Part shown: positions 18,696-57,102 of the stretch, piece by piece
How positions within the stretch are numbered: the first letter of the stretch is position 1
How the letters are laid out: each line of letters starts with the position of its first letter
Virus record (IMG/VR): IMGVR_UViG_3300029969_000011
DNA: 64,000 bases
From: a virus
Lineage: Duplodnaviria > Heunggongvirae > Uroviricota > Caudoviricetes
Reading direction: 5' to 3' (one strand)
Position numbers and translations under genes: made by a program
Notes under the pieces: model-generated
Databases searched by the model: none
What the model was told of the DNA's origin: nothing
What the model saw: the letters and a program-made list of their open reading frames with translations, nothing else

Positions 18696-18787
18696 TGGCG
18701 ACGAAGTGAGGTGTCGAGCCCCATACCGCTCATCACGGTACCAACTGCTTTCAAGGCAGTGCTCAAGGCCGCTTGAGATACTCCGCC
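18696..18787 (-). tRNA. tRNA-Ser (anticodon TGA), class II
   Basis: CCA+G73; T-arm; long variable arm (taccg/cggta); anticodon loop reads tttcaag on plus strand (codon TCA); acceptor pairs with two G-U. Confidence 0.5.
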
Positions 18788-18999
18788 ATTATCAAGATAC
18801 GTTTTTTTCTCGTGCCTCTGCCAATTGGGCTACTCCCCGATATGCTGCCCGAGACAGGAATCGAACCGTTACCCTCCGCCTTCTTCAGGCGGCGTGCACA
18901 CCTATGCACTACAAGGGCAGTCTGGTCGGGGAGGATGGGATTCGAACCCACACTCATCGTGCTCCTAACGCATTAATTGAGTAGCTGACGTATCTTTAT

Positions 19000-19075
19000 T
19001 GGTGCCGAGGGGGAGAGTCGAACTCCCTACGCCAAGCTCTTCAGGCTTGCGCTCTACCAGTTGAGCTACCTCGGC
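19000..19075 (-). tRNA. tRNA-Phe (GAA)
   Basis: Perfect cloverleaf: acceptor gccgagg/cctcggc, T-arm gggag-agtcgaa-ctccc, anticodon loop tcttcag (codon TTC), CCA encoded. Confidence 0.75.
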
Positions 19076-19208
19076 ATTATCAAGACAGTTATACTTATAA
19101 ACTCTACCCGTTGAGCTACGCGACGCGAACGCCACGGTGGGATTCGAACCCACATCCCCCTTTGTGCAAAAAAGAAAAAGTTTTAAGTGTTTTGCTGAAC
19201 TGCCTTAT

Positions 19209-19285
19209 TGGTCGGGGCGGTGGGATTCGAACCCACAGAATCGTGATTTTGAGTCACGCACGTTTACCAGTTACGTCACGCCCCG
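19209..19285 (-). tRNA. tRNA, anticodon CAA (Leu-type anticodon) with class I (short variable arm) body
   Basis: Perfect acceptor cggggcg/cgccccg, T-arm, D-arm acgt-ttaccagtt-acgt; anticodon loop ttttgag (codon TTG); 5-nt variable loop. Confidence 0.55.
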
Positions 19286-19412
19286 ATATAAAATGCAAAA
19301 TATGAAGAGGATACCACACCCTGCAGAGGCCCATATTTATTTATATCCCGCACCATAAGCTTCTTCGCGCTTCAATCCGTCGACTGTCCTCATGGCCATC
19401 CGTGCGGTTTTC

Positions 19413-19488
19413 TGGGTGGAAAGATGAGATTCGAACTCACACCTTCATGGGCCACAACCATGCGCTCTACCATTAAGCTACTCACCAC
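19413..19488 (-). tRNA. tRNA-His (GTG)
   Basis: Anticodon loop gccacaa (codon CAC); extra 5' G-1 and C73 discriminator + CCA characteristic of tRNA-His. Confidence 0.7.
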
Positions 19489-19595
19489 ATCAATTCCGAC
19501 TTTAACCCAAGTCGGCAGGGTTAAATAAAACCAAATCTGCCTCCACACAGTGGAGTTAGCTGTAGACAATAGCACTGAACATAACTATTCCTACT

Positions 19596-19671
19596 TGGTC
19601 TCGGTTATAGGACTCGAACCTATGACTTTCTCCTTGTAAGGGAGACACTCTCGCCGCTGAGTTAAACCGAG
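19596..19671 (-). tRNA. tRNA-Val (TAC)
   Basis: Perfect acceptor ctcggtt/aaccgag, T-arm atagg-actcgaa-cctat, anticodon loop ttgtaag (codon GTA). Confidence 0.7.
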
Positions 19672-19698
19672 ATTATCAAGACTCTCTATACCTTGCGG

Positions 19699-19772
19699 TT
19701 CCGGAAGGGGGATTCGAACCCCCATATGTACGATTTTAGGTCGTATGACTTAGCCACTTTGTCTATTCTGGA
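19699..19772 (-). tRNA. tRNA-like, anticodon region TAA with irregular loop (C33?)
   Basis: T-arm ggggg-attcgaa-ccccc, acceptor tccggaa/ttctgga; anticodon stem tacga/tcgta with loop ttttagg. Confidence 0.35.
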
Positions 19773-19920
19773 AAGGAATATTGCTGAAGAGTCTTTATTT
19801 GGTTCGGGTATGCTTATCGGAGTCAAGTACTCGCAGTTCCTCTTTCGAGGTATTTTCTTCGGAGTAAAGACCTTAAGGTTCGCGTAACCTCTCGTGCCCT
19901 AACCCATATCCGAAACCCGA

Positions 19921-19997
19921 TGGTGCCGTTAGAGGGACTCGAACCCACACTAACCAGTTCCTAAGACTGGCGCCTCTGCCAATTGGGCTATAACGGC
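19921..19997 (-). tRNA. tRNA, anticodon TAG (Leu-type anticodon) with class I, Gln-like body
   Basis: Perfect acceptor gccgtta/taacggc + CCA, anticodon stem ccagt/actgg loop tcctaag (codon CTA), 5-nt variable loop, 3-bp D-stem. Confidence 0.5.
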
Positions 19998-20061
19998 ATT
20001 GTTAAACAGTTCGAGTTACGGTCAAACTGAAGGTAAGCACCGATTAAGCAGCCAGATACTC

Positions 20062-20292
20062 CTATTCAGAATAATCAAGCTTTTCAATTCTTTTCATATC
20101 GGAATATGTAACCTGCTTCCAACCACTCTTAGGGTGGTTAAAGGCACACATCCAGCAGGAACAATGAATTTTACCTTTGGCTAACTTTCCGTCGCAATCA
20201 CAAAACCAATGATGAGTTTCATCAATGATATGTCTTTTGCGAGCTATGTGTTGTCTTCTCTGATAACGATAGTATGCTCTATCTCTTTCCAT
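20062..20292 (-). CDS. Arg-rich zinc-finger protein inside the tRNA array
   Basis: 76 aa; basic N-terminus, HxxxC...CxC...CxxC cluster. Confidence 0.4.
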   Translation of the reverse strand: MERDRAYYRYQRRQHIARKRHIIDETHHWFCDCDGKLAKGKIHCSCWMCAFNHPKSGWKQVTYSDMKRIEKLDYSE

Positions 20293-20432
20293 TGTGCCGC
20301 CCTCCGAAAAATTATAATAACGAATATAGGCAACCCACTACTTACTTTCCTTACCAGCGTAAATTAAGCACCTTCGCTACGTATTGCTACTACCTCAGTA
20401 TTTAATTTACTATGCCCTTCCCTCGATATTCG

Positions 20433-20975
20433 TTACTTAGTAATTCTGTTTGCGATACCAGAAGCAGCGTAGCTGTCTGGCTTGATAGCAACCTCGAAGC
20501 CGCAAGTCTTAATCCAAGAGGTAATCTCAGTAATAAGCTGATTTGTCTTACCTGCGTGACCAATGTCAGCGTGGACAGCGAAAGTAAATCTTCCGTCATT
20601 AGACATTTGCTCAAGGTCAATATCATAGTCGATAAGAGCATAAGCAAGAGCATCTACGAAACCTGTTGCGTTCTCAATAGAACGAGAAGTCTCTTCCTGT
20701 ATCTTAGTCTTAAGAACTCTTATCTTTGGTATATCTTGCTTGCGATAGAAGAAAATGCCGCCATCACCGATACGGTGAACAGCAATTACTTCCACCATTC
20801 TTGTGCACTTGTGGTTCTGGCTATCTGTACCCACAGTTATTTCGTATGAGGCGTTAGGTGCCTTTGCGATGTAGTCGGCTACAATAGAGCCTATCTGTGA
20901 ATAACGAACCTTCTCACCATTACCACGAGTAAATATCTTCTCGGTAATCACGGTTAATCTCTCCTTTATATTCAA
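20433..20975 (-). CDS. YkuK/DUF458-like RNase H-fold protein
   Basis: 180 aa; VGTDSQ and AVHADIGH motifs resemble the GTDSQ/HADSN signatures of the YkuK family. Confidence 0.4.
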   Translation of the reverse strand: MNIKERLTVITEKIFTRGNGEKVRYSQIGSIVADYIAKAPNASYEITVGTDSQNHKCTRMVEVIAVHRIGDGGIFFYRKQDIPKIRVLKTKIQEETSRSIENATGFVDALAYALIDYDIDLEQMSNDGRFTFAVHADIGHAGKTNQLITEITSWIKTCGFEVAIKPDSYAASGIANRITK

Positions 20976-21107
20976 ATATTCAAGACAGTTATGTTAGCTA
21001 CCTTTTGATTAAAATTCAAATGCTTTTAAAGAATTGCTGGACTGTCTTAGTGGTGATAATACGTGCCGCGGCACCACAGACCGCTATATGTGGTCGCACG
21101 TATTCTC

Positions 21108-21194
21108 TGGTCGGCTCGGTGGGACTCGAACCCACACGCCCTTGCGGGCACCAGCTCCTTAGGCTGGCGCGTCTGCCAATTCCGCCACGAGCCG
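21108..21194 (-). tRNA. tRNA-Leu (anticodon AAG), class II
   Basis: 87 nt; perfect acceptor cggctcg/cgagccg + CCA; long variable arm gccc-ttg-cgggc; anticodon loop tccttag (codon CTT). Confidence 0.55.
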
Positions 21195-21262
21195 ATTTAT
21201 CAAGACTCATCTTGTGTTTTTATATGCCCAAAAAACTTTCAGAGTTGCTGCTGAGTCTTATC

Positions 21263-21339
21263 TGGTCGGAGATGCGGGACTCGAACCCACGGCCTCTCGC
21301 TCCCAAGGCGAGCGCTCTACCAAACTGAGCTAATCCCCG
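21263..21339 (-). tRNA. tRNA-Pro (TGG)
   Basis: Anticodon stem ctcgc/gcgag, loop tcccaag (codon CCA); D-arm gctc-taccaaact-gagc; CCA encoded. Confidence 0.65.
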
Positions 21340-21409
21340 ATTAATTGGCGGCTTCAGGGACGCTACAAGATAACCAACCGCCAGAGTTATCACGCACTTA
21401 ATGTCCCAA

Positions 21410-21486
21410 TGGTCGGCGAGATGGGATTCGAACCCACACTGAATGGATTTTAAGTCCATTGCCTCTGCCTGTTGCGCTACTCGCCG
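21410..21486 (-). tRNA. tRNA, anticodon TAA (Leu-type anticodon) with class I body
   Basis: Perfect acceptor cggcgag/ctcgccg + CCA; anticodon stem atgga/tccat loop ttttaag (codon TTA); 5-nt variable loop. Confidence 0.5.
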
Positions 21487-21606
21487 ATAAGCCTATTAAA
21501 TAGGCTACAAGATATAACCCCTTTTACCGCGGGGCAGTCTCCCCAATATAATTGGTTGGGGAGATAGGAATTGAACCTACAAAAGTGAGTTGCTGATATA
21601 TCTTAG

Positions 21607-21683
21607 TGGTCACGCCAGCGAGGCTCGAACTCGCATTTTAGCCTTGAAAGAGCTACTTCCTACACCTGTTAGAAGATGGCGCG
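21607..21683 (-). tRNA. tRNA-Glu (TTC)
   Basis: T-arm gcgag-gctcgaa-ctcgc, anticodon loop ttgaaag (codon GAA), CCA encoded. Confidence 0.6.
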
Positions 21684-21835
21684 ATTCATCAAGATGTGCT
21701 TTTACCTCTCATGAGGATTTGAACCTTACCGTCCCCTTTTTGGGGCTGTGCTACCAGATTACACCATAACGCCGAGAGGATTTAAAATGGCGGCGTTAAA
21801 AACTTTAAAGAAAAAGTTGCTGACACATCTTTATT

Positions 21836-21909
21836 TGGTTGCGCAGACAGGACTCGAACCTATATCAACGGATAATGACTCCGTTATGCTACCTTTGCAC
21901 TACCGCGCG
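21836..21909 (-). tRNA. initiator tRNA-fMet (CAT)
   Basis: Anticodon loop taatgac (anticodon CAT); 5' CGCGCGG / 3' CTGCGCAACCA with C1·A72 mismatch, as in bacterial initiator tRNA. Confidence 0.6.
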
Positions 21910-22760
21910 TTCTCTTTATTTTCTATAATTATTATAGCATAAATTATAAAAAATGTCAAATTTTTGATTTCTAAGTCATTTCGTAAGCACTCTCACCGCG
22001 TGAAGGTAGACTTAATTGAGAGTATTTCTTCAACAATCTTGGGTGCCGCCACATCTCCTGCACACAGGAGACAGGGTACTCGAACCCCTCCATCGCCAGT
22101 TGCTGAAAGGAATTTCAACCTAATCTCATTAGTTATAAAGCCACTGAGCTGTAGCTATGCGAATAATTTGCCGCAATCAACGGGCGACTATTCTAATCGC
22201 CGTCATAACCAACACAAGTTATGAACCATTGTAATGTCGTCAGGTTCCCACACTTACGCAGTAAACGCGCCGCTTAACCACTTGGTTTAGGTATGTTCAT
22301 AACCAAGAAATTTTCCCTTTTACATCGTCAGCAGTAGATGTCGTAATTTTATCGGTACTTCCCCGAATGGACATTGCGTGCCTATCGTACTCACGGTAAT
22401 GTACGTAACCGCTGCCGTGCCAGCCAATACACGGATTTATACTGCCATCACACAGTCGGGCAGGTCTGTGATGGGTCTCTGCCCAATTTGGTTTTTGTGG
22501 TTTTAAACAGTCCAATGAGTAAACCTCAACTCAACTGTAGAGAATATTTGGTGGTTCGCTCTCTCTCAGCGAAGGTGTAAAGGGAGTTTAAACCACTTCC
22601 TCGTGGGGTTTTAACGTCTTTTCCTTGACAAGTCTCGCCGCAACCAGTACCATTTAAGGTACGCCAATCACTACGGGTTGCACATCCTTACTTTACCTGC
22701 CCAACAGGTCGGCGGTTGGACCCGCCAGTGTCCCTTTTATTCTCTTTAAGTAATTGGCAA

Positions 22761-22835
22761 TGGTGTGGGATAGGAGAATCGAACTCCCACCGCCTGTTTG
22801 GAAGACAGGAATACTGACCGTTATACGAATCCCAC
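22761..22835 (-). tRNA. tRNA-Gly (TCC)
   Basis: Perfect acceptor gtgggat/atcccac + CCA; anticodon stem cctgt/acagg, loop ttggaag (codon GGA). Confidence 0.65.
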
Positions 22836-23045
22836 ATTAGTTCTTATTTTTAAGTATAATTTATTATAACATATTCTAAGAAAAAAGTCAAATTTTTAAT
22901 AGTGATTGTCTTTGTAGGGGTCTGTCTTCTTCTTATCATGGGTTGCGGCGATGATGTCTGGCATAACCTCTATGAGCTTCCAAAGAAGTACGGTTACGCA
23001 AACAACTATTAGGTACTGCATCAGACAGACCTCCTTTCAAGACAT

Positions 23046-23120
23046 TGGTTTCTCCGCTTGGATTCGAACCAAGGAATGGCAGTTTTAGAGACTGCTGTCT
23101 TAAGCCTCTTGACGACGGAG
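23046..23120 (-). tRNA. suppressor tRNA, anticodon CTA (reads TAG); tRNA-Gln-like body
   Basis: Perfect acceptor ttctccg/cggagaa + CCA; T-arm cttgg-attcgaa-ccaag; anticodon stem gcagt/actgc, loop tttagag = C-U-CUA-A-A; 3-bp D-stem, variable loop CATTC as in E. coli tRNA-Gln. Confidence 0.7.
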
Positions 23121-23125
23121 AATTA

Positions 23126-23201
23126 TGGTTGCCGCTCTGGGAATCGAACCCAGTAAGACGGAGTTAGAGTCCGTTGTCCTCGCCAACTAAACGAAGCGGC
23201 A
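23126..23201 (-). tRNA. second suppressor tRNA, anticodon CTA (reads TAG)
   Basis: Perfect acceptor tgccgct/agcggca + CCA; T-arm ctggg-aatcgaa-cccag; anticodon stem acgga/tccgt, loop gttagag (anticodon CUA); 3-bp D-stem. Confidence 0.65.
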
Positions 23202-23342
23202 AAATTCTCCAAGACGCCTTTACATTTACCTTTTAAACATTTTAAGTGTTCTATTGTAAGAAATGATTGCAGGATGCGTCTTTCATTCTTATAAAATAAT
23301 TATAACATATTTTATAAAAATTGTCAAATTTTTGAGTGCTTA

Positions 23343-23606
23343 TTAGTCTACAGCAGTTGTAGTAGTTGTCTCTGTTGTAGTCTCTTCTGCCTCAGTTTCT
23401 GTGGTAGTAGTTGTTTCTTCGGTAGCCTCAGTTGTCTCCTCTGCTACTGTTGTAGCTTCAGTTGTTTCAGCTTCTGTTGTTTCAACTTCTGTTGTAACTA
23501 CTGTTGTGGTTTCACTGTTGCTTCCGCTATCCTTTGATGTATCGCAAGAAACAAAAGTTACAGCCATAGCGCCTGCCATAAGACAAGCTAAAATAGCCTT
23601 CTTCAT
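23343..23606 (-). CDS. small secreted lipoprotein, Thr/Glu-rich
   Basis: 87 aa; signal peptide + TFVSC lipobox-like; (ETT)n low-complexity tail; located inside tRNA array. Confidence 0.45.
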   Translation of the reverse strand: MKKAILACLMAGAMAVTFVSCDTSKDSGSNSETTTVVTTEVETTEAETTEATTVAEETTEATEETTTTTETEAEETTTETTTTTAVD

Positions 23607-23949
23607 TGTGTTTCACCTCTTTGCTTTTTAAATAAGAACCCTTGCTTGTATATCGAAACCTCGTATTATATCCACAGTCACATCGTGATTTACTCCCACA
23701 CAAGAGGGCTACCATGGAGAAGGGGCACGCCCCGAGATGGGCGGCAATAATCATAGAACGCTATACGAAAAGCATAACGTACTAAGGAACTCTTTCCACA
23801 CGTGGTGGATGAGCTATCGTATTTCTACGACCCCGCACAGCGGGTAGAAGTCATAATGACCTCTTAACAGTAATTTTGATTGAGCCGCGTTTCCTCTTTT
23901 AAGTCTGACTAACTGCGGTAAAAAATCCAGACTTCAAAATTACTTTTAA

Positions 23950-24043
23950 GAAATCATTATGGCGCGGTCGGGGAGACTCGAACTCCCACACCGATTGCTC
24001 GATTACTCATAGTTTAGCAAACTACTGCCTTACCAAATTAGGC
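23950..24043 (-). tRNA. tRNA-Ser (GCT), class II
   Basis: CCA + G73; perfect acceptor gcggtcg/cgaccgc; long variable region; anticodon loop ttagcaa (codon AGC). Confidence 0.5.
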
Positions 24044-24188
24044 TTACGACCGCATTATCAAGATACGTTTTTTCGATATACGTTGTTCTACCAGTTGAAC
24101 TACTCCGCCATATTGGCGACGGAGGCAGGACTTGAACCTACACCTACGGCGTGATAGGCAATCTATTGCTTGCTGACGTATCTTAGTT

Positions 24189-24266
24189 TGGTGTGCCTGA
24201 TGGGACTCGAACCCATGACCCCCTGATTAAAAGTCAGGTGTTCTATGCCAACTGAACTACAGGCAC
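24189..24266 (-). tRNA. tRNA-Lys (TTT)
   Basis: Perfect cloverleaf; acceptor gtgcctg/caggcac; anticodon loop ttaaaag (codon AAA). Confidence 0.75.
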
Positions 24267-24366
24267 ATTAACATCCGCTGAGCATCTTATTGGAACGCTT
24301 TCACCATGCGAGACCTCTATTGTTTATTTGCTGGCAGAATTTGAACCATTAACCATAGCGAATATT

Positions 24367-24442
24367 TGGTGGGACGCCTGAGATTCGAACTCAGATAAGC
24401 TCGGTTATGAGCCGAGTGCACTAACCATTGTACTAACGTCCC
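24367..24442 (-). tRNA. elongator tRNA-Met (CAT) or tRNA-Ile2 (CAT, lysidine)
   Basis: T-arm ctgag-attcgaa-ctcag; anticodon stem ctcgg/ccgag, loop ttatgag (anticodon CAT). Confidence 0.6.
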
Positions 24443-24490
24443 ATTAAAGAAAGGAAAGGGGCATACTTTCAAGATGGCTATGCCAGACCA

Positions 24491-24564
24491 CTAAGTTATT
24501 GGCTTCGGCAAAGGGAGTCGAACCCCTATCAACAGAGCCAAAATCTGTTGTCCTACCATTAGAC
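24491..24564 (-). tRNA. tRNA-Gln (TTG)
   Basis: G73 + CCA; anticodon stem acaga/tctgt, loop gccaaaa (codon CAA); 3-bp D-stem GTC/GAC. Confidence 0.65.
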
Positions 24565-24601
24565 GATACCGAAATCTATGGAGTCATAAAGACTCCAAAT
24601 A

Positions 24602-38885: not shown

Positions 38886-39458
38886 TTAAGATTGACTTTC
38901 TTCTTCATCAAGTATTGCATCTTCCAAATTGGCAGCTCGTCTTTCCAAAACACCAATCTTATATATTAATTCATTCATATTAGGTTCTGCTGGACGCTCT
39001 TGCCATTCAGGAAGTGCAGGATAACGTCTTTTAAGAACATTATAAGTAATTCTATCGTAGTTAATGCCAGACTCATCGTGATAACCTTGATAAATAAAGT
39101 AAATGAAGTCGGGTCCTATAAGCCCCTCTGCAACTAACTCTTGATATTCTTCCCAAGTTTCATTGTAGTGATAAGGAAGGTATTCCCATTTATAGGTTAC
39201 ATCATTTGAATCTGTATCCTTGATATTGCCGCGAGCAAATTCTCGTGCAACTAATTCATCAATCTTAGCTTCTGTTAATGAAGCAATAAAACGATAGACA
39301 GTTTGTTTATCTTCATCACCATTAACATTAGAAAAGTCAAAATTCATTTCTGCTTTTCTTTCTCCGTCATTAGGCTCAAAAGTATATGTTTTCGGGGTGG
39401 CCTTTTCACCAGGCTCAGCCCCGATATCATATTTAAACTTCTTTGTAAAATCAGACAT
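38886..39458 (-). CDS. hypothetical protein
   Basis: 190-aa ORF. Confidence 0.4.
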   Translation of the reverse strand: MSDFTKKFKYDIGAEPGEKATPKTYTFEPNDGERKAEMNFDFSNVNGDEDKQTVYRFIASLTEAKIDELVAREFARGNIKDTDSNDVTYKWEYLPYHYNETWEEYQELVAEGLIGPDFIYFIYQGYHDESGINYDRITYNVLKRRYPALPEWQERPAEPNMNELIYKIGVLERRAANLEDAILDEEESQS

Positions 39459-40610
39459 TATTCATCGCTCCATAGAATTGCTGGAGATAATCTTCTGCTT
39501 TCTTATCAATTATGTAGAAATCAGCGCCATGCTTCTTTGGCAAGAATGTTGGCCAATCCCACCAAAAAACTCCAGCGAAGTATGGGTCGTCTTTGAATAC
39601 TTCCATACAAGACATATAGAAATTCAACTGTTCATCTTCATCATATGAGAGGCTTTCTGTAAAGTCCCAAGGATGAGCAGAAGCATTCATTACTGAGCGG
39701 CATCCTACTTCCATAAAAATAAATTGTTTGCCGCGGTCCTTCGCAATAGCATCAAGACGATAACGAATTTCCCACCATCTTTTTACAAGAGAGTCGTAGC
39801 TATTATCTACTGGTCCATCGAGGTACTCTGCACCGACTGGATAATAAGCAGAAGTGCCAAGATAATCACAAAGCTCAAACCATTGCTGGTCATCTTCATG
39901 GTCATGATTAGTGTTGTAAACAATTTTACCTTTATAAACACGACGGACTTCTTTAATTATATATTCCCAGTCATACTTACGGTGTTCAGTGCCAAGCATT
40001 TCACAGCCGATACATAGCATTTCTGCTCCACACTCTTGTGCTATTTCTGCGTAGTTGAGGATAAAGTTTTTATAGCTTTCAAACCAAGGGCCCCAATAAG
40101 CATTTAGGTCGTCCATATTGAGGTCTGGGAAGCCGATATGGGCTCTCCAAACATTATCTCTTGAATGTACCATAGGTTTTAAACAAACTTTAACCCCACG
40201 TTTATGCGCCGCCCTGACAAATTCTTTAATATCGCCTTCCGTTGGCGTTGCCAAGTGGTCTGCATAAATTCGAGTTGAATGATATGTGTCTTGATAGTTT
40301 ACTATTGTTAAGCAAACCCAATTATTATTAAGCTTATACATACGCTCCTGAGATTCTATTCCCTCAGCAGATTTAATTTCGCCTCTATTTGCGAAGTATC
40401 CATAAGTCATACCCCACATCTTCTCATTTTTATTGACTAGCGGCACAGGAGTCTTTGCTGTAGGGAAGGGTTCCCAAGGAAGTGCCGCCGAGATAAAAGG
40501 TGCACCGTCTGAATATCCGATATTAGGCCCACCGATATATGATGTTAATCCAGTCGCTCCATCGGTTCCATAGAACTAAGGAGGATTTGGATATATCATT
40601 TCTGTACTCA
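39451..40610 (-). CDS. TIM-barrel glycoside hydrolase with one in-frame TAG
   Basis: ORF 39451..40446 (GTG start in track) extends in frame to ATG 40608-40610 (GGGAGGG RBS) across a single TAG at about 40573; sequence features suggest a glycoside hydrolase. Confidence 0.45.
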
Positions 40611-40703
40611 TTTGCTATATCCCTCCCAAAAAATTTCACTATTTAAATAAGGTATCATACCTTATATTATAATATTAACATAAATTTTGAAAAAAGTCAA
40701 ATA

Positions 40704-41807
40704 TTAAACTGGTTCGTTGTATATAAATTCTGTTAATGAATTGCCATTATAAATAACTTCTGTCATTTGATTTCCGTCATAATAAAATGGAACACCAGTT
40801 GGAGGTGGTGGCGGATTTTCTGGTATATCAAGCATAACTGGAATATACGGGAATCCGTTATTTCTGTTCGGGTCAATGTGCCAATCTGTTGTTGCAGCTG
40901 AGTCAGTGCTGATTATGAAACCTTTGCTGTCAAGGTCGCTTTTGGACTTCATTTCTATTGTAGTTGCGCCAATTGTGCCTGTAGGTAATGTACCGCTGTA
41001 TTTATCAGTATTAACTAAGACGGAACTCATTTGTCCATAGTCCAAACGGAATCCGCCGGAAATATCGGCATTTATAACAGTCTTTTGAAAAGTAGTAATA
41101 TAAGAAAATCCAGCTATACCAGATACGTTACCTTCAATATAACAATAGTAAAAAGCACCATATAACTCATAATCATTGTTTTCATAGGTTGCACGAATAT
41201 TACAATATCTAATTCCAGCTTGCCAGTTCACTCCATTTGTAATCGAGCCGTCACCATTAAATGTTAGATTAAAACTACATACATCGATATATCCTAACAT
41301 ATATGTAACGTCAATTATAGCATTATATTCTTGACCAACAGAATATTTCTAAGCTGCTTCAAGACTACCTAAAAAACGACAATACCTTATAAAAGTTCCA
41401 CTACCAGAAGTTTGTGCTGAAGCCAATAATGCCACCGAAGCTCTCTATGAAGTATTTCCAGTCATATGTGCTGCAACACCATTAGAATCGACTATGAAAT
41501 CAATGAAATCAAGATATTCAACTCGACCACTGGCTTCATGTCCAGAAATTATAAATCCATAGTAGCTATAAGTGCCTGAAGTATTAGTAACTTTGGCATT
41601 TTTTATCTACCAGCCATTACCGTTGATAAATCCACGCAGCGGTATGTTATGCACTTCTCCATCTGTGTAGTAGTCACGCATATCAAATACGCCGCCACCC
41701 TCTGGTAATTCAGTATACTTATTATCTGCTGTGGTGCATTGTAGAAATTCTTCCCAAGTCGTAGGCTTGTAAGGGTCTGCAGATGTGCCGCTGCCCGTTA
41801 TCGCCAT
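40704..41807 (-). CDS. tail-associated structural protein with in-frame TAG codons
   Basis: Frame-2 ORFs 40704..41300 and 41607..41807 joined across TAGs; ATG 41805-41807 with GGAGGTGG RBS overlapping the TAA of the upstream fibre gene (TAATG). Confidence 0.45.
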
Positions 41808-44800
41808 TAATTTCCACCTCCATCGACAAAGTACATAATACCAGGTTCAGTTGCTTCAGAAGCAGACTAAACAACTTGAATTGGAATTTGAGTTAATAAT
41901 GCTTTGAGTGCTTCAAGCTATTTGAAACTAAATGATATTTCTTCATTAGTATTTGGATTACTTAAAGTAATACCACTTTCACCGCCTACCACTTCTGCTT
42001 TAATTCTAATACCATTATATAATCTAAATTCTGAATCATCAGTAATTTCTACAATAGGATTATTAGCATAGCTATTCAAGTGAGCATTACTATTATAGTA
42101 ATATCTATATACTATTGTAATAGAATCGTTAGAATTTAAAATAATACTCTCATACTGGTCAACAATCTATCCACTTAAGAAAGTTTCAAAATCAGCATAG
42201 TCAGCACCTGCTTCAAACTGTTTAATAAATTCATATTTATCAGTTAAATCATAAGTCTCAGTAGGAGTAAAAGTATAGCTCAAATGAGAATATGCTCCTT
42301 GGCTCCAACCTTCTCTAAGTACACAGTTAACAGGTCCGTATGCCTGAATAATTGGAGACTAATCCCAAGTCTCAGTACCAACTCTATCTGCTGTTTGAAT
42401 TGGACGATACCATTCTTTACCTAAATGTTGTGCCGCGCCCTAATATACAGAAGTTGTTGCTACTTTGTATCTTGGATGTTCTGCCGCATCATAGGTTCCT
42501 GTTTCTGCATTAGAGAAATCATAAGCTCCTACATTATAAGGTTTAGAAGAACTCTGATTTAAGAAGGTTTGAATATCTTCTGGTAAATCAGCATAAGGAG
42601 TATTAGGATAATTAAGTTTGTAATCAGTAGTATTATTTACAGTATTTTTAACTAAATAACTGTCGTATTCTGCAATAAAATTCTTTACCTTATAATAATA
42701 GTATCCATATCTTTGCTGATAATAAGTAACTGTACAATTAGTTCCAGCAACAACTCGGTCACATTTAAAAGCATTTCTAAAGAATGCTTGTACTTTACTA
42801 TTATTAAAGAAAGTGCTTGCGCTGGTTGATATATATGAATCAATATAAACTGTATATTCAGAAGAAACTAAATCTTTAACATTTTTAACTTCAAGTGACT
42901 CAATGTACTCATATAAGCTAACTTCAGACCAAGAAGTGTAAGCATTTTTTAATACTATCTGATAATTACTATTATCTTCTCCTCCTACTATATTACGGAC
43001 TCCCTTCTTAATGCCTGCTTCCGCACCGCTCATATTAGAAGAGCCTATATATTTATAAATATAATCCTTTTTATCAGTAACAGTATGAGTTTTTGTAATT
43101 GTTATATTAGTAATATCCAAATAATATGAACCTAAATAATAACGATATGTTGTAGAACTACCAGAATAACGTGATAATTGAGCATCTGATTTAAGGGTAA
43201 GAGCAAAATTATTTCCGTATCCAAAAGTATCTCTTATCCAGTCTTTAAATTCTTGTGACTATACTAATGTACTTTCCGTATAATAAGTATTAGAATTAAA
43301 ATACTAAGTTGTATTCCAGTTAATTATTTTAACATTATTAATTGTTAAAGTTTCTGTATATTTTATTGGAAGTTTTGTTTTAGATGTTCCAGTAAATCTA
43401 TTCCAAGTGTAATCATCATTATGAGGGTCGCCATTTGGTAGAGTAGTTGCATTTTTTAATTCAGTCGCAAATTGAGTTTCAATATCAGAAGTTGACATAT
43501 TGCTTAAATCAGTATCAACAACAATTTCGCCCTAAACAGAAATTTCCTTAGTTGTTTCATACATTTTTGGATAATGCTCATATTTAGTTCTACTATACTT
43601 TTCAGCTACAGGATTGACTTCGCTATTTCTTAAAATTACAGTACCGCTCCAAGACTCTAAATGAGTATTGCCGTCAATCTAAATAAAAGAATCATTACCT
43701 TCAAATATTCCCTTAAATCTATCCCATTGACAAATAATCTCACTATGTTTTGGTTCTACTGTTAAACCAAAAGCATACTTAGGGTCAAATTTAATTGCTG
43801 TAGTTCCACTTGGTTCAAAAAAGATAGAAGTCTCTGCAGAACTATCTGGACCAAATCGGAAATATGTACTACTTCCGTCATTAGGAACAATGTCTCCAAT
43901 AAGTTTAGAATTTCCTCCAATTCCATATTTAATTTGAGTTGTACTATTTCCACCACAAGAAGCTACAATACCAATAGTAGAACTATCTCTTGTTGCTAAT
44001 TGCATACCCAATCTACCTGATTCTGAAGAACAGATATGCATACTAACAGGTCCTTCATAAGCAACTAAAGGATAACCTATATACTTTTTCATTATATTTA
44101 AATCATCAAACTTAGTATTTATACTACAATGAGGATGGTCATAATCAAAAGTTCCAATCTAACTATGTTCAATACAGTTAGCTCTTGTACTATAATCTAC
44201 CCAACTACCATTAAAGAAAATATTTGAACTACCATCCCATCCATCATGGTCTTTTCCATTAGTAATGGCACCACTACCAAAAACCATCTGTCCTCTATCG
44301 ACAGAAACACAAGCAGGAAATTCTTCAGTACCTCTCATTCTTACCATAGACCCTGGATGAATATAAACTTGGGTTCTGTAACCTTCCTATAATTTAATTC
44401 CATGATTAGTATCGTGATATCCATTAGAATACTGACCACCATTAATATGAATATCAGCATTACCAGATAAAATTGCTGTCGCATTATTTCTCATTTGTAA
44501 AGTAGCTCTTTCATAAATAGAAACTGTTGCTCCGTCATGAATTTGGAGTATAGGAGAATTATCATTATCTCTGCCACTAAAAGGATTAATATACTTTCTA
44601 ATATCTTCTCTGTCGGGATGAGCCTATCCAAGCCAATAATTAGGTCCTGGATTAGCATACATATCAATTAAACAGTTACCTCTCATTGAAATAGCCGGAG
44701 TGCTACGAGGGTCTGCTCCGCCAAGCATTTCAATTTTTGCAGTTCCTTTAATTTTAATAGTAGGGCTTGTCAAAGTTTCTTCAAAGTCTTCTCCGCCCCA

Positions 44801-45358
44801 CCATTTTATACCACTATATACAGTTTCTTTTGTGCCTATTTCAATTTTTGAGTCTCCATAAATTTTAGCTATAGCAGAATCTGCACTGCTAAAACCATTT
44901 TTTAAATAGGTAATTGGATAATTAAACACGCCCTAAGTTGAGGCAGGTTTTATTGTACCAAAAGCGGTTTCAAATGGAGGTCCTTCAATCATTCCAATTC
45001 CGAAATAAGTTGGTGAAGGAGTTACTCCACCTGTCACAGGAGTTATATTATTATCTTTCCAAAATGGCATACTATAAAGATTACAGTCATTTCCTTTTGC
45101 CCATTCTTTAGGTTCAACATTTCCAGTTCCAGTAAGTAACTGAGAGTAGCTTGCCTTAATCGGAGGAACATCTGCTCCGAGTGGATAAAACCGCTCAGTT
45201 TCAATGTCATAGCGATAAGGGATATTTGTTTCTTCGACTATATATAAATGGTTCTCTTTCTTATCGGTTAAATCGAAAAGGTCTTCATAGGCATAGACAG
45301 TAGTTACGTCATCTTCTGCTGCACCGAAAGGAATCCCATTACGAAATATAATTCCCAT
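41807..45358 (-). CDS. large tail fibre / receptor-binding protein (about 1183 codons) with many in-frame TAG codons
   Basis: Six frame-1 ORF fragments (42440..43120 to 44933..45358) separated only by TAG; hand translation of 41807-42440 shows only TAG interruptions ending at TAA 41807-41809; N-terminus MGIIFRNGIPFGAAEDD paralogous to the gene at 47565. Confidence 0.5.
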
Positions 45359-45435
45359 TTATTATGACCTCCTATCATAGTGTGCCGCCCCTCAGATTTT
45401 TAGAAGGGCGGCGCATTTAATTTATATTATTCTCT

Positions 45436-47565
45436 TTAAGTTTGTGGATGAATTATATTATATAAAGCCTATAAATCTGCCATACTAAAAGTAACGTCAG
45501 TAGTACCATCGCTAAATGTAAATTCAACCTCTGATGTTCCCTATTCAGCTTTAATCGTTGCGCCATCACGAAGACGAAGTTCTGACTCACCATACATTTC
45601 AAATACAGGAGCATGAGTAGATGTAGCTGAAGCAAGTCTTGGAATATCATTTGTAAATTTATATCTAATATGAACGATATAACTACTATTATTACTTTCA
45701 TTATTTATAGTATATGATATTAAAGTTCTATTATATGTAGCAAGTTCATCTAAAAAGTCTTGATATTTAGTAGAAGCCTCAAAATCTGATTTTGACATTG
45801 TTGTATTATTTGTAAAACTATATTCTCCAGTATACTCTCTTGAAATATCTGCCGCCATTGCAAAGTTAGATTCATCATACATCTAAAAGACAGGTTCAGA
45901 ATCATTCTATACAAATACAGTCCAATCTCTTCCTAAATGTGAATTGCTTGGGTGGCCACCATAAATGATATTTTCATTTGCAGGAGTTGTGGTTCTCATT
46001 ATAAATGAGCCACCATGTAATTCGCTATGGAAACTTCCTGATGTTTGAATATAAGCATTATCTCCTTCAATTAAAGCATCTAATGCACTCCATTGGCAAG
46101 TTATTTCAGTCGCTACATTTGGAGTAAAAGATATAGCACAGCTACCCTTTGGTGAGTAATTAATACTTGAAACACCATTTGGACAATAGTTAAAAACTGT
46201 ATTACTACTGCCGGCTGGTTCAATGTTGTAAGCTGCGACAGCATTTTTGCCGTGACACATATTAAACATTACTATTGCGCCGCTATCTGTACCAATCTTA
46301 ATATCTTCATAACCATATCCACTCCAGTCAATGGATGTATAAGCACCGCCACTTGGAGCTATTTTTGCAGCTAAATATCCGCTATCACCAATTGATAAAT
46401 GAGTTTTACCCATGATATTTAATGTAGGCTAAAAAAGTTTTGGCATTAAAGTAGAAGGAAGACTACCTGGGCTAACACTGGAATTATAAATAAAATTACG
46501 ATGATTATATAATCTATAGGAAAAACTAATTATACGACTACTTAAAGTGGCACCAAAATCATGGTCACTTGAATTATAATCATAAATTCCATTATGAATA
46601 CCATGCTATGCAGTTATTAAAAGTTTACCAGGACCGTCTCCACTGCTACTACTTTCAAGAGCAATCATTGGTCCATATTCGCCGCCATAGGTACCTGTTG
46701 ACCTTGTCATTCTAATCATTGCGCCCGGTTCCATATATAAACCAGTTCTTATTTGACCAGAATTAATCTGTTTACCATTAAGGTCAGTTAATGCTCCACC
46801 ACGGATAACAACATCTGCATTACCAGCCATTTCAAGACCCGCACTGTCTGCCATTTTAATAATAGAAGCGCCTTCCATTATAACCGTACTTGAATTTGAC
46901 ATATGGAAATATGGAAAAATTTCTGCATCACTTAAACGAGTATAGTTACTACCATAAGGAGAGTAACCTTGATAGGCATAATAAGCAACTTCAGACAGAC
47001 ATTTGTCACCAGAGCTATGCCTTGGTAAAGCGCGAGTATAGGTCTTCTAATTATTATGGTCCTAATAGGCATACATTTCAAAAATACCGGCTCCAAGCAT
47101 TGAGATGACAGGAGAACTTCCTTCTCTTTTCATCATCTATAGTAATGGAGAACCATACATAAAGAACTTGGCATTATTTTTATTTTCGCCCCAATATAAT
47201 TCTGAAACATCAGTTGTACTTCCTATTTCTATTGCTGTCATAGAAGTTTTCAATTTTGCAATGGATGAAACAGCGCCAGGACTTCCTATTGTCTCTGCAA
47301 ACCAAAAGCTATGAGGCTTTACTCCACCTTCTCCGTCACCTATTACTATTTCATTCTCATCTGCCGCGATATTAAAAGTTGCAGACAAAGGAACAAACTC
47401 TCTGTTCTCAACATCCCAATAATACTCAGTATTATCAGAAGTAGTAACATATAAATGATTTGTTTCTTTATTTGGCAGATTAGTTAAATCCTCAAAATTA
47501 GTTACAATAGTAACATCTTCTTTCGCCGCCCCAAAAGGTCTACCATTTCTAAATATAACTCCCAT
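45436..47565 (-). CDS. tail fibre paralog (about 709 codons) with in-frame TAG codons
   Basis: Frame-0 ORFs 45541..45882, 45907..46413, 46606..46902, 47137..47565 joined across TAGs (verified at 45541, 45883 and 45907); ends at TAA 45436-45438; GAGGAGG RBS; N-terminus MGVIFRNGRPFGAAKED. Confidence 0.5.
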
Positions 47566-47958
47566 TAAGTATCAACCTCCTCTTCTGCATCAGGGTCGAA
47601 TTCGGGGTGGTCTTCCTAATAAGCTGCGACAAGTTTATCATACTTAGTCATTAATTCATTTACTTTGTTAAGTAAATATTCAACAGCATCAGAAAACTCT
47701 ATATCTGTAACAAAGAATATTTGGTCTTTGTACTAATTCATAAAGTCTGGCTGTTCAGCGAGAGCAACATAATCATCCCAGGTTATGTCCTACTCATGCA
47801 TTTTACGCTGTTCATTTGCCATTTCCTTTGCACCTCCGTACAATTTGTTTTCTACATAATAAAGTAGAGATTTGAGTCGAAACGTCTAATCCTTTACTTA
47901 TTGATATTATAGCATAAAAATAGAGAGAAGTCAAGTGTTGACTTCTCTCTTTTTAATA

Positions 47959-50900: not shown

Positions 50901-51321
50901 GAACGCCATCATTACCGAAATCAAGTAAATCATAAAGCTGTTCGAGAGTAAGATTACCAACAAGGTATTCATCTTCAGGAATGTCGCCACCTTCTTCAAG
51001 AATTTTATTAGTAAAGTCCATATTCTTGATATGCATCGGAATCTCATCGTGGCGTGCTTCTCTATACTCAAGTCCAAGTTTATTAATTAAAGGTCTTGGA
51101 TTCAAATAGTCTGGTAGTGTTCCTGTTGCATCAGCCTACAAAAGAGTTCTTCTATACTAATCATCGAAAAGAGCTCTACTACCACCTATAGTATTATCAC
51201 CATTTTTAGTTTCGTCTATGTATAAATTAGTAGTAAGCTAATCAATTATACTATCCCAATCTATCATACCATTCGCATCTTTTTCAAGAAGGGTAGGCTC
51301 TAATATAATATCTTTACTCAT
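47959..51321 (-). CDS. large virion/tail protein (about 1120 codons) with in-frame TAG codons
   Basis: Frame-0 fragments 47959..48186, 48535..49164, 49339..49755, 50833..51105 plus upstream extension to ATG 51319-51321 (GGAGGAGG RBS); TAGs verified at 51136, 51157, 51238 and 48535; ends TAA 47959. Confidence 0.4.
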
Positions 51322-51683
51322 CTTCTTCCTCCTCCTTCTTTCCTATCACCCTTTCCCAAATCTTCTTTAGGGAATCAAAGCCATTCATACTAATGAACGC
51401 AATAATAAAACCATTAAGAACACTTGCCGCGATAGTAGCAAAACTAATAACAACGCCAGGTGCAAGGAATGGAATTATAACAGCAATGATTAGAGCAATA
51501 ATTAATGTTAATATCTAAGTAGGGAATTTCTTAGGTACTACATTTTTCATAACTTCAACTATAATCATAGTCAAAAATGCCATAGCACTTATTGAGCCTA
51601 AAGTTCCTAAACCTAAAGCTGCAAAAATACTCTCCATTGTTATCCCTCCTTTAAATTAAGGGGAGGTTTAACTCTCCCCTTTA

Positions 51684-55717: not shown

Positions 55718-55762
55718 CTGCTGACCGCTTGAAGGAAGATTACTTGAACTTGAAAGCTCTCC

Positions 55763-57075: not shown

Positions 57076-57102
57076 ATGAAAATAAAAAATGAGGTGAAGA
57101 AA

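What the first reader, a model, noticed from the sequence alone, without database searches (positions are those of the whole stretch)
23046..23201. Two tandem, non-identical amber-suppressor tRNAs
Adjacent tRNAs (23046-23120 and 23126-23201) both have anticodon loops reading C-U-C-U-A-A-N (anticodon CUA). Their acceptor and T stems differ (TTCTCCG versus TGCCGCT), so they are not simple duplicates. Each has a perfect 7-bp acceptor with encoded CCA and a 3-bp D-stem like tRNA-Gln. The second copy could insert a different amino acid, or provide dosage.
Basis: seen in the sequence. Interest (0 to 1): 0.7.

Follow-up and report, generated by a model that had tools for sequence, protein, structure and literature searches.

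The report
Paired glutamine-type amber-suppressor tRNAs in phage
A large gut or rumen phage that reads the stop codon TAG as glutamine carries two adjacent, different-looking tRNAs for that codon; both look like glutamine tRNAs and related phages keep both, so this is a well-supported example of a known kind of phage code change.

Summary
Two canonical tRNAs with anticodon CUA lie 3 nt apart on the minus strand: SupA at 23046-23122 and SupB at 23126-23201. Both encode CCA and have perfect 7-bp acceptor stems. They sit in a roughly 20-tRNA array, behind a perfect sigma-70-type promoter.

The window uses TAG as a sense codon. There are 65 in-frame TAGs in the genes at 39-64 kb, up to 17 per gene. 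TAG means glutamine: three TAG sites in the endolysin align to Gln in 118-120 of 120 homologues, encoded CAA in a standard-code orthologue.

Both tRNAs carry the U1-A72/A73 signature of the sense tRNA-Gln genes in related phage arrays. Both score best with a home-made Gln covariance model. One A-type and one B-type suppressor co-occur in nine related contigs, with compensatory stem changes, so neither is a pseudogene or a recent duplicate.

The best reading is two glutamine-inserting suppressors that together give the near-complete read-through these genes need. A second amino acid is unlikely but not excluded. Several amber-suppressor genes per recoded phage have already been reported (phAss-1), so I rate this a new member of a known kind, of modest interest.

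The parts
23046..23122 (-). SupA: A-type amber-suppressor tRNA (anticodon CUA). Loop CUCUAAA, acceptor UUCUCCG/CGGAGAA, A73, encoded CCA, A13.A22, 5-nt variable loop CAUUC.
   Evidence: ARAGORN. Rfam 55.4 bits with alignment. Its only E. coli match is tRNA-Gln, weak (best E = 0.2, 77% identity). Its best phage match is the tRNA-Gln of phage EcS1. Orthologues occur in 9 contigs with T-stem covariation.
23126..23201 (-). SupB: B-type amber-suppressor tRNA (anticodon CUA). Loop CUCUAAC, acceptor UGCCGCU/AGCGGCA, A73, encoded CCA, U13-G22, 4-nt variable loop.
   Evidence: ARAGORN. Rfam 53.4 bits. Orthologues occur in 11 other contigs (12 loci with the window); six distinct sequences show 9 compensatory pairs, 100% paired. 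Gln model 68.8 bits against Glu 57.4 and Lys 52.1.
23299..23327 (-). Perfect extended -10 sigma-70/sigma-A-type promoter (TTGACA-17-TATAAT, with TG), about 98 nt upstream of SupB. It probably drives a SupB-SupA transcript.
   Evidence: Promoter scan, 12 of 12 matches. It belongs to a family of 26 such sites in the window, against 0.15 expected.
18700..24573 (-). tRNA array that holds the pair: 19 ARAGORN tRNAs plus one class II Ser(UGA)-like tRNA. It includes tRNA-Gln(UUG) at 24500-24573.
39451..56419 (-). Block of TAG-recoded late genes: GH113, tail-fibre-like proteins with 13, 9 and 17 in-frame TAGs, the endolysin, and a collagen-like fibre.
   Evidence: Reading TAG as sense raises stop-to-stop ORF cover from 0.71 to 0.89 and the longest ORF from 627 to 1183 aa. 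Pfam hits.
51684..52919 (-). Endolysin (Amidase_2) with 5 in-frame TAGs. Three of them sit at invariant Gln columns, so this gene calibrates TAG = Gln.
   Evidence: Homologues have Q at 120/120, 118/120 and 120/120. The standard-code orthologue L055 has CAA at all three sites.
57076..63999 (+). Divergent block of genes, several with in-frame TAGs: P-loop protein, DNA ligase, NrdD. RNase H and the ORF at 57076-58044 have none. Recoding is therefore not limited to structural genes.

Best explanation
SupA and SupB are two functional, paralogous, glutamine-type amber-suppressor tRNAs of a large TAG-to-Gln (genetic code 15) phage. The host is most likely Ruminococcus or another member of the Oscillospiraceae.

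SHOWN: both are canonical cloverleaf tRNAs with anticodon CUA. Both types are conserved as a pair in related phages, with compensatory changes. The phage has about 73 in-frame TAGs in the window. TAG sits at invariant Gln positions.

INFERRED: the pair is transcribed together by host RNA polymerase from a consensus early-type promoter, processed, and charged with glutamine by the host's Gln-tRNA pathway (GlnRS, or non-discriminating GluRS plus GatCAB). The U1-A72 pair and U35 would be the main determinants. The charged tRNAs then outcompete release factor 1 at UAG.

Two genes are kept because read-through must be nearly complete. A gene with 17 TAGs needs about 96% suppression per site to yield 50% full-length product. 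Two diverged sequences give that capacity without a recombination-prone direct repeat. They also give robustness if one tRNA body is poorly charged, poorly modified or cleaved in a given host.
For: - **tRNA status:**
- **Pair conservation:** one A-type plus one B-type occurs in L020, L022, L046, L047, L049, L050, L051, L052 and L053. They are tandem, about 115 nt apart, or split by tRNA-Ser(GCU).
- **Selection on structure:** B has 21 pairs, 100% paired, 9 compensatory. A has 19 pairs, 100% paired, 3 compensatory.
- **Gln identity, signature:** all 10 distinct sense tRNA-Gln in these arrays have U1-A72, and 8 have A73. All 13 distinct CUA tRNAs have U1-A72 and A73. The Glu tRNAs have G1-C72 or C1-G72.
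- **Gln identity, models:** the Gln covariance model ranks SupB (68.8 bits) and SupA (63.2) directly after the training tRNA-Gln. The Glu and Lys models score them lower. SupA matches only tRNA-Gln in E. coli (weakly, best E = 0.2) and in phage EcS1.
- **TAG = Gln, alignment:** endolysin sites align to Q in 120/120, 118/120 and 120/120 homologues. They are CAA in a standard-code orthologue. Q is the commonest residue opposite TAG in relatives, 14 of 57.
- **TAG = Gln, composition:** CAA+CAG+TAG is 3.0% of codons in both the early and the late region. CAG falls where TAG rises.
- **Expression:** promoter results.
- **Host:** Shine-Dalgarno cores upstream of 40 of 52 genes against 17% background. 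Endolysin relatives lie in Ruminococcus genomes and Ruminococcus phages.
- **Literature:** only TAG-to-Gln and TGA-to-Trp reassignments are seen in phages whose code differs from their host's (Borges et al., bioRxiv 10.1101/2021.08.26.457843). TAG-to-Gln is validated by proteomics (PMC9523058, abstract).
Against: - No aminoacylation or proteomic data exist for this phage.
- SupA prefers the Gln model to the Glu model by only 3.8 bits.
- Both tRNAs have A73 rather than the G73 of E. coli tRNA-Gln, and neither has G3-C70.
- If dose were the only need, identical duplicates or one strong gene would do. Long-term retention of two distinct types hints at non-redundancy: A is invariant in its acceptor, D and anticodon arms, while B varies freely there.
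- One relative, L033, shows only the B type in the stretch available.
- Whether the host uses GlnRS or the indirect pathway was not determined.
Confidence: 0.7

Rival explanations
1. Both insert Gln but are not redundant. They may be tuned to different partners or conditions. SupA, with a classical bacterial tRNA-Gln-like body, would be a GlnRS substrate. SupB, with U11-A24, U13-G22 and a 4-nt variable loop like the GluRS 'augmented D-helix', would go through non-discriminating GluRS plus GatCAB. Alternatively they serve different hosts, or one survives a host anticodon nuclease or tRNA-targeting defence that disables the other.
For: - The two types are kept side by side across diverged phages.
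- Their constraint patterns differ sharply: A is invariant in three arms, and B covaries in three stems.
- SupA resembles E. coli tRNA-Gln, while SupB finds no E. coli match at all.
- An unrelated contig, L014, also has a tandem CUA pair with one ...AAA and one ...AAC loop.
- The window encodes a tRNA/RNA repair set (RNA ligase, PNK/HD, RlaP-like, Ro60-like), which fits pressure on tRNAs.
Against: The reading of identity elements rests on E. coli rules recalled from the literature, not on a test here. The host pathway is unknown. Sense tRNA-Gln genes in the same arrays show the same mix of features, so the differences may simply be inherited from two tRNA-Gln lineages.
Confidence: 0.17
2. The two tRNAs carry different amino acids, for example SupA Gln and SupB Glu or Lys. 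TAG would then be decoded ambiguously.
For: - SupB has Glu-like D-arm and variable-loop features.
- Both tRNAs have A73 and U35, which in E. coli favour LysRS mischarging of amber suppressors (my own knowledge, not tested).
- TAG is opposite GAG (Glu) in a 98%-identical relative at one site. E is opposite TAG at 5 of 57 aligned sites.
Against: - U1-A72 is invariant in both types and absent from every Glu and Lys tRNA of the arrays.
- The Gln model beats the Glu model by 11.4 bits for SupB.
- TAG occupies three positions that are Gln in 118-120 of 120 endolysin homologues. A mixture would be harmful there.
- E, K, S, R, T and N opposite TAG at variable sites is what is expected for Gln (inference).
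Confidence: 0.07
3. One of the two is a decaying duplicate or a non-functional tRNA-like remnant, and only the other one works.
For: L033 appears to carry only the B type. Phage tRNA arrays do turn over quickly: the tRNA-Gln(UUG) differs between the window and the 94%-identical L050.
Against: Both have full cloverleaves, canonical T loops, G18G19, U33 and an encoded CCA. Both keep 100% of their stem pairs across relatives, with compensatory changes. They co-occur in 9 contigs spanning at least three levels of divergence.
Confidence: 0.03
4. They are tRNA-Pyl, as ARAGORN labels them, or some other non-standard decoder.
For: Only the ARAGORN label, which follows from the CUA anticodon.
Against: Both have a 5-bp anticodon stem, normal D loops with G18G19, a canonical UUCGAAU or UUCGAUU T loop, and 4-5-nt variable loops. 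None of these are tRNA-Pyl traits. No pyl genes were seen among the ORFs scanned. Aligned residues are Gln.
Confidence: 0.01

Closest known systems
Phage-encoded amber-suppressor tRNAs of TAG-to-Gln (code 15) phages: crAss-like, Lak, and the recoded clades of Borges et al.
   Same: A CUA tRNA is encoded by the phage. In-frame TAGs are concentrated in structural and lysis genes, and early genes are largely compatible with the standard code. No dedicated aaRS was seen, so host charging is presumed. Glutamine is the inferred meaning.
   Different: There are two distinct suppressor types, conserved as a pair. The host is probably Ruminococcus (Firmicutes). The phage has no near relative in GenBank phage records, and its late proteins have no PHROG family.
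phAss-1 / 'Phassvirus' gut phages (PMC10607447)
   Same: These are large TAG-recoded phages of probable Clostridia hosts. They have many tRNAs and more than one tRNA-SUP-CTA gene: three in phAss-1, two in its relatives. The suppressors are assigned to Gln, and no aaRS is present.
   Different: There is no detectable nucleotide similarity. SupA and SupB find no such records by blastn, and the 20-kb segment finds none either. The phAss-1 passages I searched do not describe a conserved heterologous pair; I did not read the whole paper.
E. coli supE (glnV/glnX amber suppressor, tRNA-Gln CUA)
   Same: It is a tRNA-Gln body whose anticodon reads UAG through a G36-to-A change. Related phage arrays hold sense tRNA-Gln(CUG) genes with loops CUCUGAA and CUCUGAC, one base away from the loops of SupA and SupB.
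   Different: supE is a weak chromosomal suppressor mutation. Here the suppressors are dedicated, promoter-driven genes that serve a genome with many sense TAGs. They have A73, not G73.

Membership tests
Canonical tRNA (Rfam RF00005) | Covariance-model score above the gathering threshold across the full model | tested here: met
   55.4 and 53.4 bits against a gathering score of 29, model positions 1-71.
Canonical tRNA (Rfam RF00005) | Cloverleaf helices maintained by compensatory substitutions in homologues | tested here: met
   B has 9 of 21 pairs with changes on both sides. A has 3 of 19. Both are 100% paired, and the slid controls fall to 40-52%.
Amber-suppressor tRNA | Anticodon C34-U35-A36 in a 7-nt loop after U33 | tested here: met
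   The covariance-model alignment gives CUCUAAA and CUCUAAC. ARAGORN reports the anticodon cta.
Amber-suppressor tRNA | The genome needs UAG read-through, that is, in-frame TAGs in conserved genes | tested here: met
   73 in-frame TAGs in 52 ORFs, including the endolysin, GH113 and NrdD.
Amber-suppressor tRNA | Demonstrated suppression in vivo | not testable with these tools
   This needs a reporter assay or proteomics.
Bacterial tRNA-Gln isotype | Weak first pair U1-A72 | tested here: met
   Both tRNAs have it, and so do all 13 distinct CUA orthologues. All 10 sense tRNA-Gln of the arrays have it, and no Glu or Lys tRNA does.
Bacterial tRNA-Gln isotype | Discriminator G73 and G2-C71/G3-C70, the E. 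coli GlnRS identity set (from my own knowledge) | tested here: not met
   Both have A73. SupB has G2-C71 but C3-G70. SupA has U2-A71 and C3-G70. However, 8 of 10 sense tRNA-Gln in the related phage arrays also have A73, so the E. coli rule does not describe this group.
Bacterial tRNA-Gln isotype | Best score with an isotype-specific model | tested here: met
   Home-made covariance models from sense tRNAs of the related arrays gave SupB 68.8 (Gln), 57.4 (Glu), 52.1 (Lys) and SupA 63.2, 59.4, 54.4. The SupA margin is small. The tRNAscan-SE isotype models were not available.
Bacterial tRNA-Gln isotype | Closest annotated tRNAs are tRNA-Gln | tested here: inconclusive
   For SupA the only hits are tRNA-Gln, in 5409 E. 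coli genomes (best E = 0.2, 77% identity) and in phage EcS1. SupB has no hit in either collection. Its nearest sense tRNAs within the arrays are Gln.
Genetic code 15 (TAG = Gln) phage | ORFs lengthen and coding density is restored only when TAG is read as sense | tested here: met
   Cover rises from 0.71 to 0.89 and the longest ORF from 627 to 1183 aa. TGA recoding does not lengthen the longest ORF.
Genetic code 15 (TAG = Gln) phage | TAG aligns with Gln in standard-code homologues | tested here: met
   Three endolysin sites have Q in 118-120 of 120 homologues, and CAA in the standard-code gene of L055.
Genetic code 15 (TAG = Gln) phage | Gln detected at TAG positions by mass spectrometry | not testable with these tools
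   This has been done only for crAss-like phages (PMC9523058).
tRNA-Pyl (the ARAGORN label) | 6-bp anticodon stem, 3-nt variable loop, small D loop without G18G19, and an atypical T loop (from my own knowledge) | tested here: not met
   Both have a 5-bp anticodon stem, 4-5-nt variable loops, 9-nt D loops with GG, and a UUCGAAU or UUCGAUU T loop.

The most novel reading that the evidence does not exclude
The two suppressors are deliberately non-redundant. Each would be acylated by a different route or enzyme (GlnRS against non-discriminating GluRS plus GatCAB), or even with different amino acids (Gln and Glu). Alternatively, one is a back-up that escapes a host tRNA-cleaving defence. The meaning or efficiency of TAG in this phage clade would then depend on host and condition, not on a simple fixed reassignment.
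Probability: 0.1. Interest if true: 0.7.

Novelty: new member of a known kind. Interest (0 to 1): 0.3.

Why it matters
Stop-codon recoding in phages breaks standard gene calling. It is also thought to time late-gene expression and lysis. This locus is a clean, well-supported case in a probable Ruminococcus phage.

The locus shows that a whole clade keeps two different glutamine-type amber suppressors side by side. That gives a concrete pair of natural tRNAs, one extremely conserved and one freely covarying. They could be used to test how much suppressor capacity a heavily recoded genome needs, and whether the tRNA body matters for charging or for escaping host defences. The two tRNAs could also be candidate parts for amber suppression in Gram-positive anaerobes. 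None of this changes current understanding unless the two tRNAs prove to be functionally distinct.

Tried and rejected
- **tRNA-Pyl label.** The ARAGORN label was rejected on anatomy.
- **Phage records, whole region.** Megablast of 20 kb against GenBank phages found only short (about 70 nt) hits at one window tRNA.
- **SupB against annotated collections.** blastn against phages and against E. coli genomes gave no match.
- **SupB anticodon arm.** The exact arm was not found in IMG/VR. A looser 3'-half pattern was needed.
- **SupA 5'-body pattern.** It was absent from the 185,579 species-representative genomes, so no host donor tRNA was identified. In IMG/VR it occurs only in L020 and L022, always with CUA.
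- **PHROGs on the late proteins.** No family was found for the five large structural-block proteins or for the 470-aa ORF at 12121-13533. The 157-aa ORF at 62159-62632 hit two families of unknown function.
- **Code-change genes.** Pfam and PHROG scans of 48 of the 52 ORFs used, plus the 3956-4420 ORF, found no release factor, aaRS or amidotransferase. Only 64 kb of a roughly 180-kb genome was visible.
- **Host tRNAs.** The 80 Ruminococcus-type loci and three homologue-context loci, 83 in all, contained no tRNA genes.
- **Opal or ochre recoding.** This was rejected. TGA recoding does not lengthen the longest ORF. The tRNA-Sec-like hit at 18700-18787 has anticodon UGA (Ser), not UCA.
- **Codon context after TAG.** There is no bias: 67% purine against 66% background.
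- **Nearest-neighbour isotyping.** I repeated it on unbiased arrays with the anticodon arm masked, and then with covariance models.

Full report
**Observation**

The region 23046-23201 holds two tRNA genes on the minus strand. ARAGORN places them at 23046-23122 and 23126-23201, both with anticodon CUA. It labels them 'Pyl' only because of that anticodon.

The Rfam tRNA model scores them 55.4 and 53.4 bits against a gathering score of 29. It aligns them over the whole model with 7-nt anticodon loops CUCUAAA and CUCUAAC.

I call the downstream gene SupA: UUCUCCG...CGGAGAA-A-CCA. I call the upstream gene SupB: UGCCGCU...AGCGGCA-A-CCA. Both have perfect 7-bp acceptor stems, U8, G18G19, canonical T loops, the discriminator A73 and an encoded CCA. 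The spacer is 3 nt.

They differ in four ways:
- acceptor stem sequence;
- D stem (A13.A22 in SupA, U13-G22 in SupB);
- variable loop (5 nt CAUUC in SupA, 4 nt in SupB);
- position 38 (A in SupA, C in SupB).

**Context**

The pair lies in an array of 19 ARAGORN tRNAs, all on the minus strand at 18.8-24.6 kb. Rfam scores one more class II tRNA, at 18700-18787, just under the tRNA-Sec threshold. Its anticodon is UGA (Ser), not an opal suppressor.

A perfect extended -10 sigma-70-type promoter (TTGACA-17-TGTTATAAT) sits at 23327-23299, about 98 nt upstream of SupB. The window holds 26 sites of this form against 0.15 expected. Nearly all are on the minus strand within 0-39 kb. The suppressors therefore appear to be transcribed by host RNA polymerase together with the early genes.

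I found no release factor, aminoacyl-tRNA synthetase or amidotransferase among 48 of the 52 ORFs used, plus the 3956-4420 ORF.

**The window is recoded**

Reading TAG as sense raises stop-to-stop ORF cover from 0.71 to 0.89 and the longest ORF from 627 to 1183 aa. Recoding TGA does not lengthen the longest ORF.

In-frame TAGs are concentrated at 39-64 kb: 65 in 7091 codons, against 8 in 8320 codons at 0-39 kb. The affected genes include:
- three large tail-fibre-like proteins with 13, 9 and 17 TAGs;
- a PlyG-type Amidase_2 endolysin with 5 TAGs;
- a GH113 protein;
- a P-loop protein, a DNA ligase and NrdD.

**TAG means glutamine**

Three lines of evidence agree.
1. Three endolysin TAGs align to Gln in 120/120, 118/120 and 120/120 database homologues. 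Some database proteins were translated from recoded genes, so I checked the DNA. In L055 the orthologue has no in-frame TAG and uses CAA at all three sites. CAA is two substitutions away from TAG.
2. In tblastn alignments to related contigs, Gln is the commonest sense residue opposite TAG: 14 of 57 sites, as CAG and CAA. The rest are polar residues at variable sites.
3. CAA+CAG+TAG makes up 3.0% of codons in both the early and the late region. CAG drops from 183 to 72 where TAG rises from 8 to 65.

This matches the literature. Only TAG-to-Gln and TGA-to-Trp reassignments have been seen in phages whose code differs from that of their host (bioRxiv 10.1101/2021.08.26.457843). TAG-to-Gln has been confirmed by metaproteomics for crAss-like phages (PMC9523058).

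**Are both tRNAs real and both needed?**

A scan of IMG/VR with the SupA anticodon arm found two contigs, L020 (186 kb) and L022 (94 kb). Each carries clear orthologues of both SupA and SupB.

A scan of the metagenome collection with a SupB-type pattern found eight more loci. Every one with enough flanking sequence holds one A-type and one B-type CUA tRNA.

Three arrangements occur:
- tandem, 3 nt apart: the window, L047, L050 and L052;
- about 115 nt apart: L051 and L053;
- separated by tRNA-Ser(GCU) and followed by a tmRNA: L020, L022, L046 and L049.

These contigs range from about 94-96% nucleotide identity to the window (L047, L050), through about 80% (L051-L053), to only patchy similarity (L020, L046, L049).

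Across six distinct B-type sequences, all 21 stem pairs are always paired. Nine pairs show changes on both sides, and the first three acceptor pairs and the D stem are nearly fixed.

Across seven distinct A-type sequences, all 19 pairs scored (the first T-stem pair was left out because of an alignment gap) are always paired. The acceptor, D and anticodon arms are invariant, and only the T stem covaries.

Neither gene is a pseudogene, and they are not recent duplicates of each other. One relative, L033, shows only the B type in the 4.7 kb available.

**Which amino acid?**

In the tRNA arrays of these related phages, all 10 distinct sense tRNA-Gln have U1-A72, and 8 of them have A73. All 13 distinct CUA tRNAs have U1-A72 plus A73. 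The Glu tRNAs have G1-C72 or C1-G72, and the Lys tRNAs G1-C72 or C1-G72.

Both acceptor flavours also occur among sense tRNA-Gln in these phages. L020 has a tRNA-Gln(CUG) with UGCC...GGCA and loop CUCUGAC. It has another with UUCC...GGAA and loop CUCUGAA. Each loop is one base (G36 to A) away from the SupB or SupA loop.

SupA's only match in 5409 E. coli genomes is tRNA-Gln, though the match is weak (best E = 0.2, 77% identity). Its only match in GenBank phages is the tRNA-Gln of phage EcS1. SupB matches nothing in either collection.

As a stand-in for the tRNAscan-SE isotype models, I built covariance models from the sense Gln, Glu and Lys tRNAs of loci that were not selected on those tRNAs. 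The scores in bits were:

| tRNA | Gln model | Glu model | Lys model |
|---|---|---|---|
| SupB | 68.8 | 57.4 | 52.1 |
| SupA | 63.2 | 59.4 | 54.4 |

Under the Gln model the two suppressors rank directly after the training tRNA-Gln, ahead of all 16 other tRNAs. Both are best read as glutamine tRNAs, SupA by a narrow margin over Glu.

An independent argument follows from codon usage. Both tRNAs read the same codon, so any second amino acid would be inserted at every TAG, including the invariant Gln positions of the endolysin. That argues against a substantial non-Gln share. This step is an inference.

**Host**

Shine-Dalgarno cores lie upstream of 40 of 52 genes, against a 17% background. The promoters are of the extended -10 type.

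The endolysin catalytic domain is about 60% identical to genes in Ruminococcus callidus, R. flavefaciens and many Ruminococcus or Oscillospiraceae MAGs. It is similarly close to endolysins of Ruminococcus phages.

The host is therefore most likely a Ruminococcus-like Firmicute. I could not determine whether that host makes Gln-tRNA directly with GlnRS or by transamidation. U1-A72 is compatible with both routes. The identity rules here come from my own knowledge of the E. coli and GatCAB literature, not from a test.

**Mechanism proposed**

- **Shown:** the anatomy, the conservation of the pair, the recoding, and Gln at TAG sites.
- **Inferred:** co-transcription from the early-type promoter, charging by host enzymes, competition with RF1, and the need for capacity.

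With 17 TAGs in one gene, 90% read-through per site gives about 17% full-length protein. About 96% per site is needed for 50%. High suppressor supply is therefore plausibly under selection.

Two diverged genes supply that capacity without forming a direct repeat, and they may hedge against host-specific failure of one tRNA body. The very different constraint patterns of A and B leave room for real non-redundancy, which I rank as the main rival.

**Comparison with the known**

Phage-encoded CUA suppressors in code-15 phages are well described. Several tRNA-SUP-CTA genes in one genome have already been reported for phAss-1 (three) and its relatives (two), with Gln assignment and no aaRS (PMC10607447).

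The present phage is not detectably related to those at the nucleotide level. Its late proteins have no PHROG family.

What this locus adds is a heterologous A+B suppressor pair conserved across a clade. That is a new member of a known kind, of modest interest.

Noticed in passing
window 24056-24168 (-), 19101-19157 (-), and ORF 16347-17810 (-): Between tRNA-Ser(GCU) and tRNA-Lys lies a tRNA-like element with a 3' acceptor/T-arm half placed before a 5' acceptor/D-arm half. It matches Rfam YrlA (Y RNA-like) at 33.4 bits, E = 2e-4, below the gathering score of 69. A second partial match sits at 19101-19157. The window also encodes a Ro60/Rsr-like protein (DUF2828 + vWA, phrog_850), an RNA ligase (9752-10684), an RlaP-like nucleotidyltransferase (13517-14359) and a PNK/HD protein (27776-28699). 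Together these look like a phage Ro-Y RNA / RNA-repair module.
   Followed up: partly
window 19209-19285, 19697-19772, 19921-19997, 21410-21486, 18844-18919 (all -): Five tRNAs with leucine anticodons (CAA, UAA, UAG, UAA, AAG) are only 76-77 nt long and have 5-nt variable loops. They have a class I shape and lack the long variable arm expected of bacterial tRNA-Leu. Only 21108-21194 (87 nt) has the arm. The same set is present in L047. The array holds six Leu-anticodon tRNAs out of 19.
   Followed up: partly
window 18700-18787 (-): A class II tRNA with anticodon UGA (Ser) and an odd T arm. ARAGORN misses it, and Rfam scores it as tRNA-Sec-like at 43.2 bits, below the gathering score of 47. It is not an opal suppressor.
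   Followed up: partly
window 23620-23960 (-): A non-coding stretch between tRNA-Ser(GCU) and a small lipoprotein-like ORF folds much better than shuffles (-104 kcal/mol, z = -4.2). It has no Rfam match. Two pieces (about 23624-23746 and about 23777-23817) are 88-95% identical in the distant phages L020, L022 and L049, but in the opposite order. This may be an unknown structured RNA.
   Followed up: partly
window, 26 sites, mostly minus strand at 12-38881: A promoter family TTGACW-N14-TGNTATAAT with a T-rich spacer has 26 matches against 0.15 expected. It is almost confined to the standard-code 0-39 kb region. Only one site lies inside the 39-56 kb recoded block. This fits an early/late division of transcription that parallels the division in code use.
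   Followed up: partly
L003, L005, L006, L010, L013, L014, L015, L016, L017, L021, L023, L026 (IMG/VR): The exact 17-nt SupA anticodon arm GCAGUCUCUAAAACUGC occurs in CUA tRNAs whose acceptor, D and T arms are unrelated to SupA and to each other. This suggests convergence on, or exchange of, one efficient amber-suppressor arm.
   Followed up: no
L014 12025-12174 (-); L017 1673-1966 (+): Unrelated viral contigs also carry two CUA tRNAs. L014 has a tandem pair 4 nt apart, with one CUCUAAA loop and one CUCUAAC loop, echoing the A/B pattern. L017 has two CUA tRNAs with identical anticodon arms but different bodies.
   Followed up: no
L027 684-757, L028 721-794, L029 4596-4669, L041 562-635: These tRNAs have a typical phage tRNA-Gln body (UGCC...GGCA-A-CCA, UCGUCUA..GGUAGGAC) but the anticodon CCG, which is nominally Arg.
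   Followed up: no
window 24500-24573 (-) against L050 2738-2811: The tRNA-Gln(UUG) of the window and that of the otherwise ~92-98% identical contig L050 (segment identities) differ in acceptor stem, anticodon stem-loop and discriminator (G73 against A73). This points to rapid replacement of single tRNA genes within the array.
   Followed up: no
L020 7441-7791, L022 4350-4717, L046 1765-2112, L049 5950-6317: The more distant relatives encode a tmRNA directly downstream of the A-type suppressor, with tag peptides ANDFAFAA, ANDFALAA and AAYKKNGLSLLTKKRP. The window has no tmRNA at the corresponding place.
   Followed up: no
window 22896-23021 (-) and 23343-23606 (-): A 41-aa hydrophobic ORF with a strong Shine-Dalgarno site lies immediately downstream of SupA, before the next promoter. 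An 87-aa Thr/Glu-rich ORF with a lipoprotein-like signal (…FVSC) lies just upstream of the suppressor promoter.
   Followed up: no
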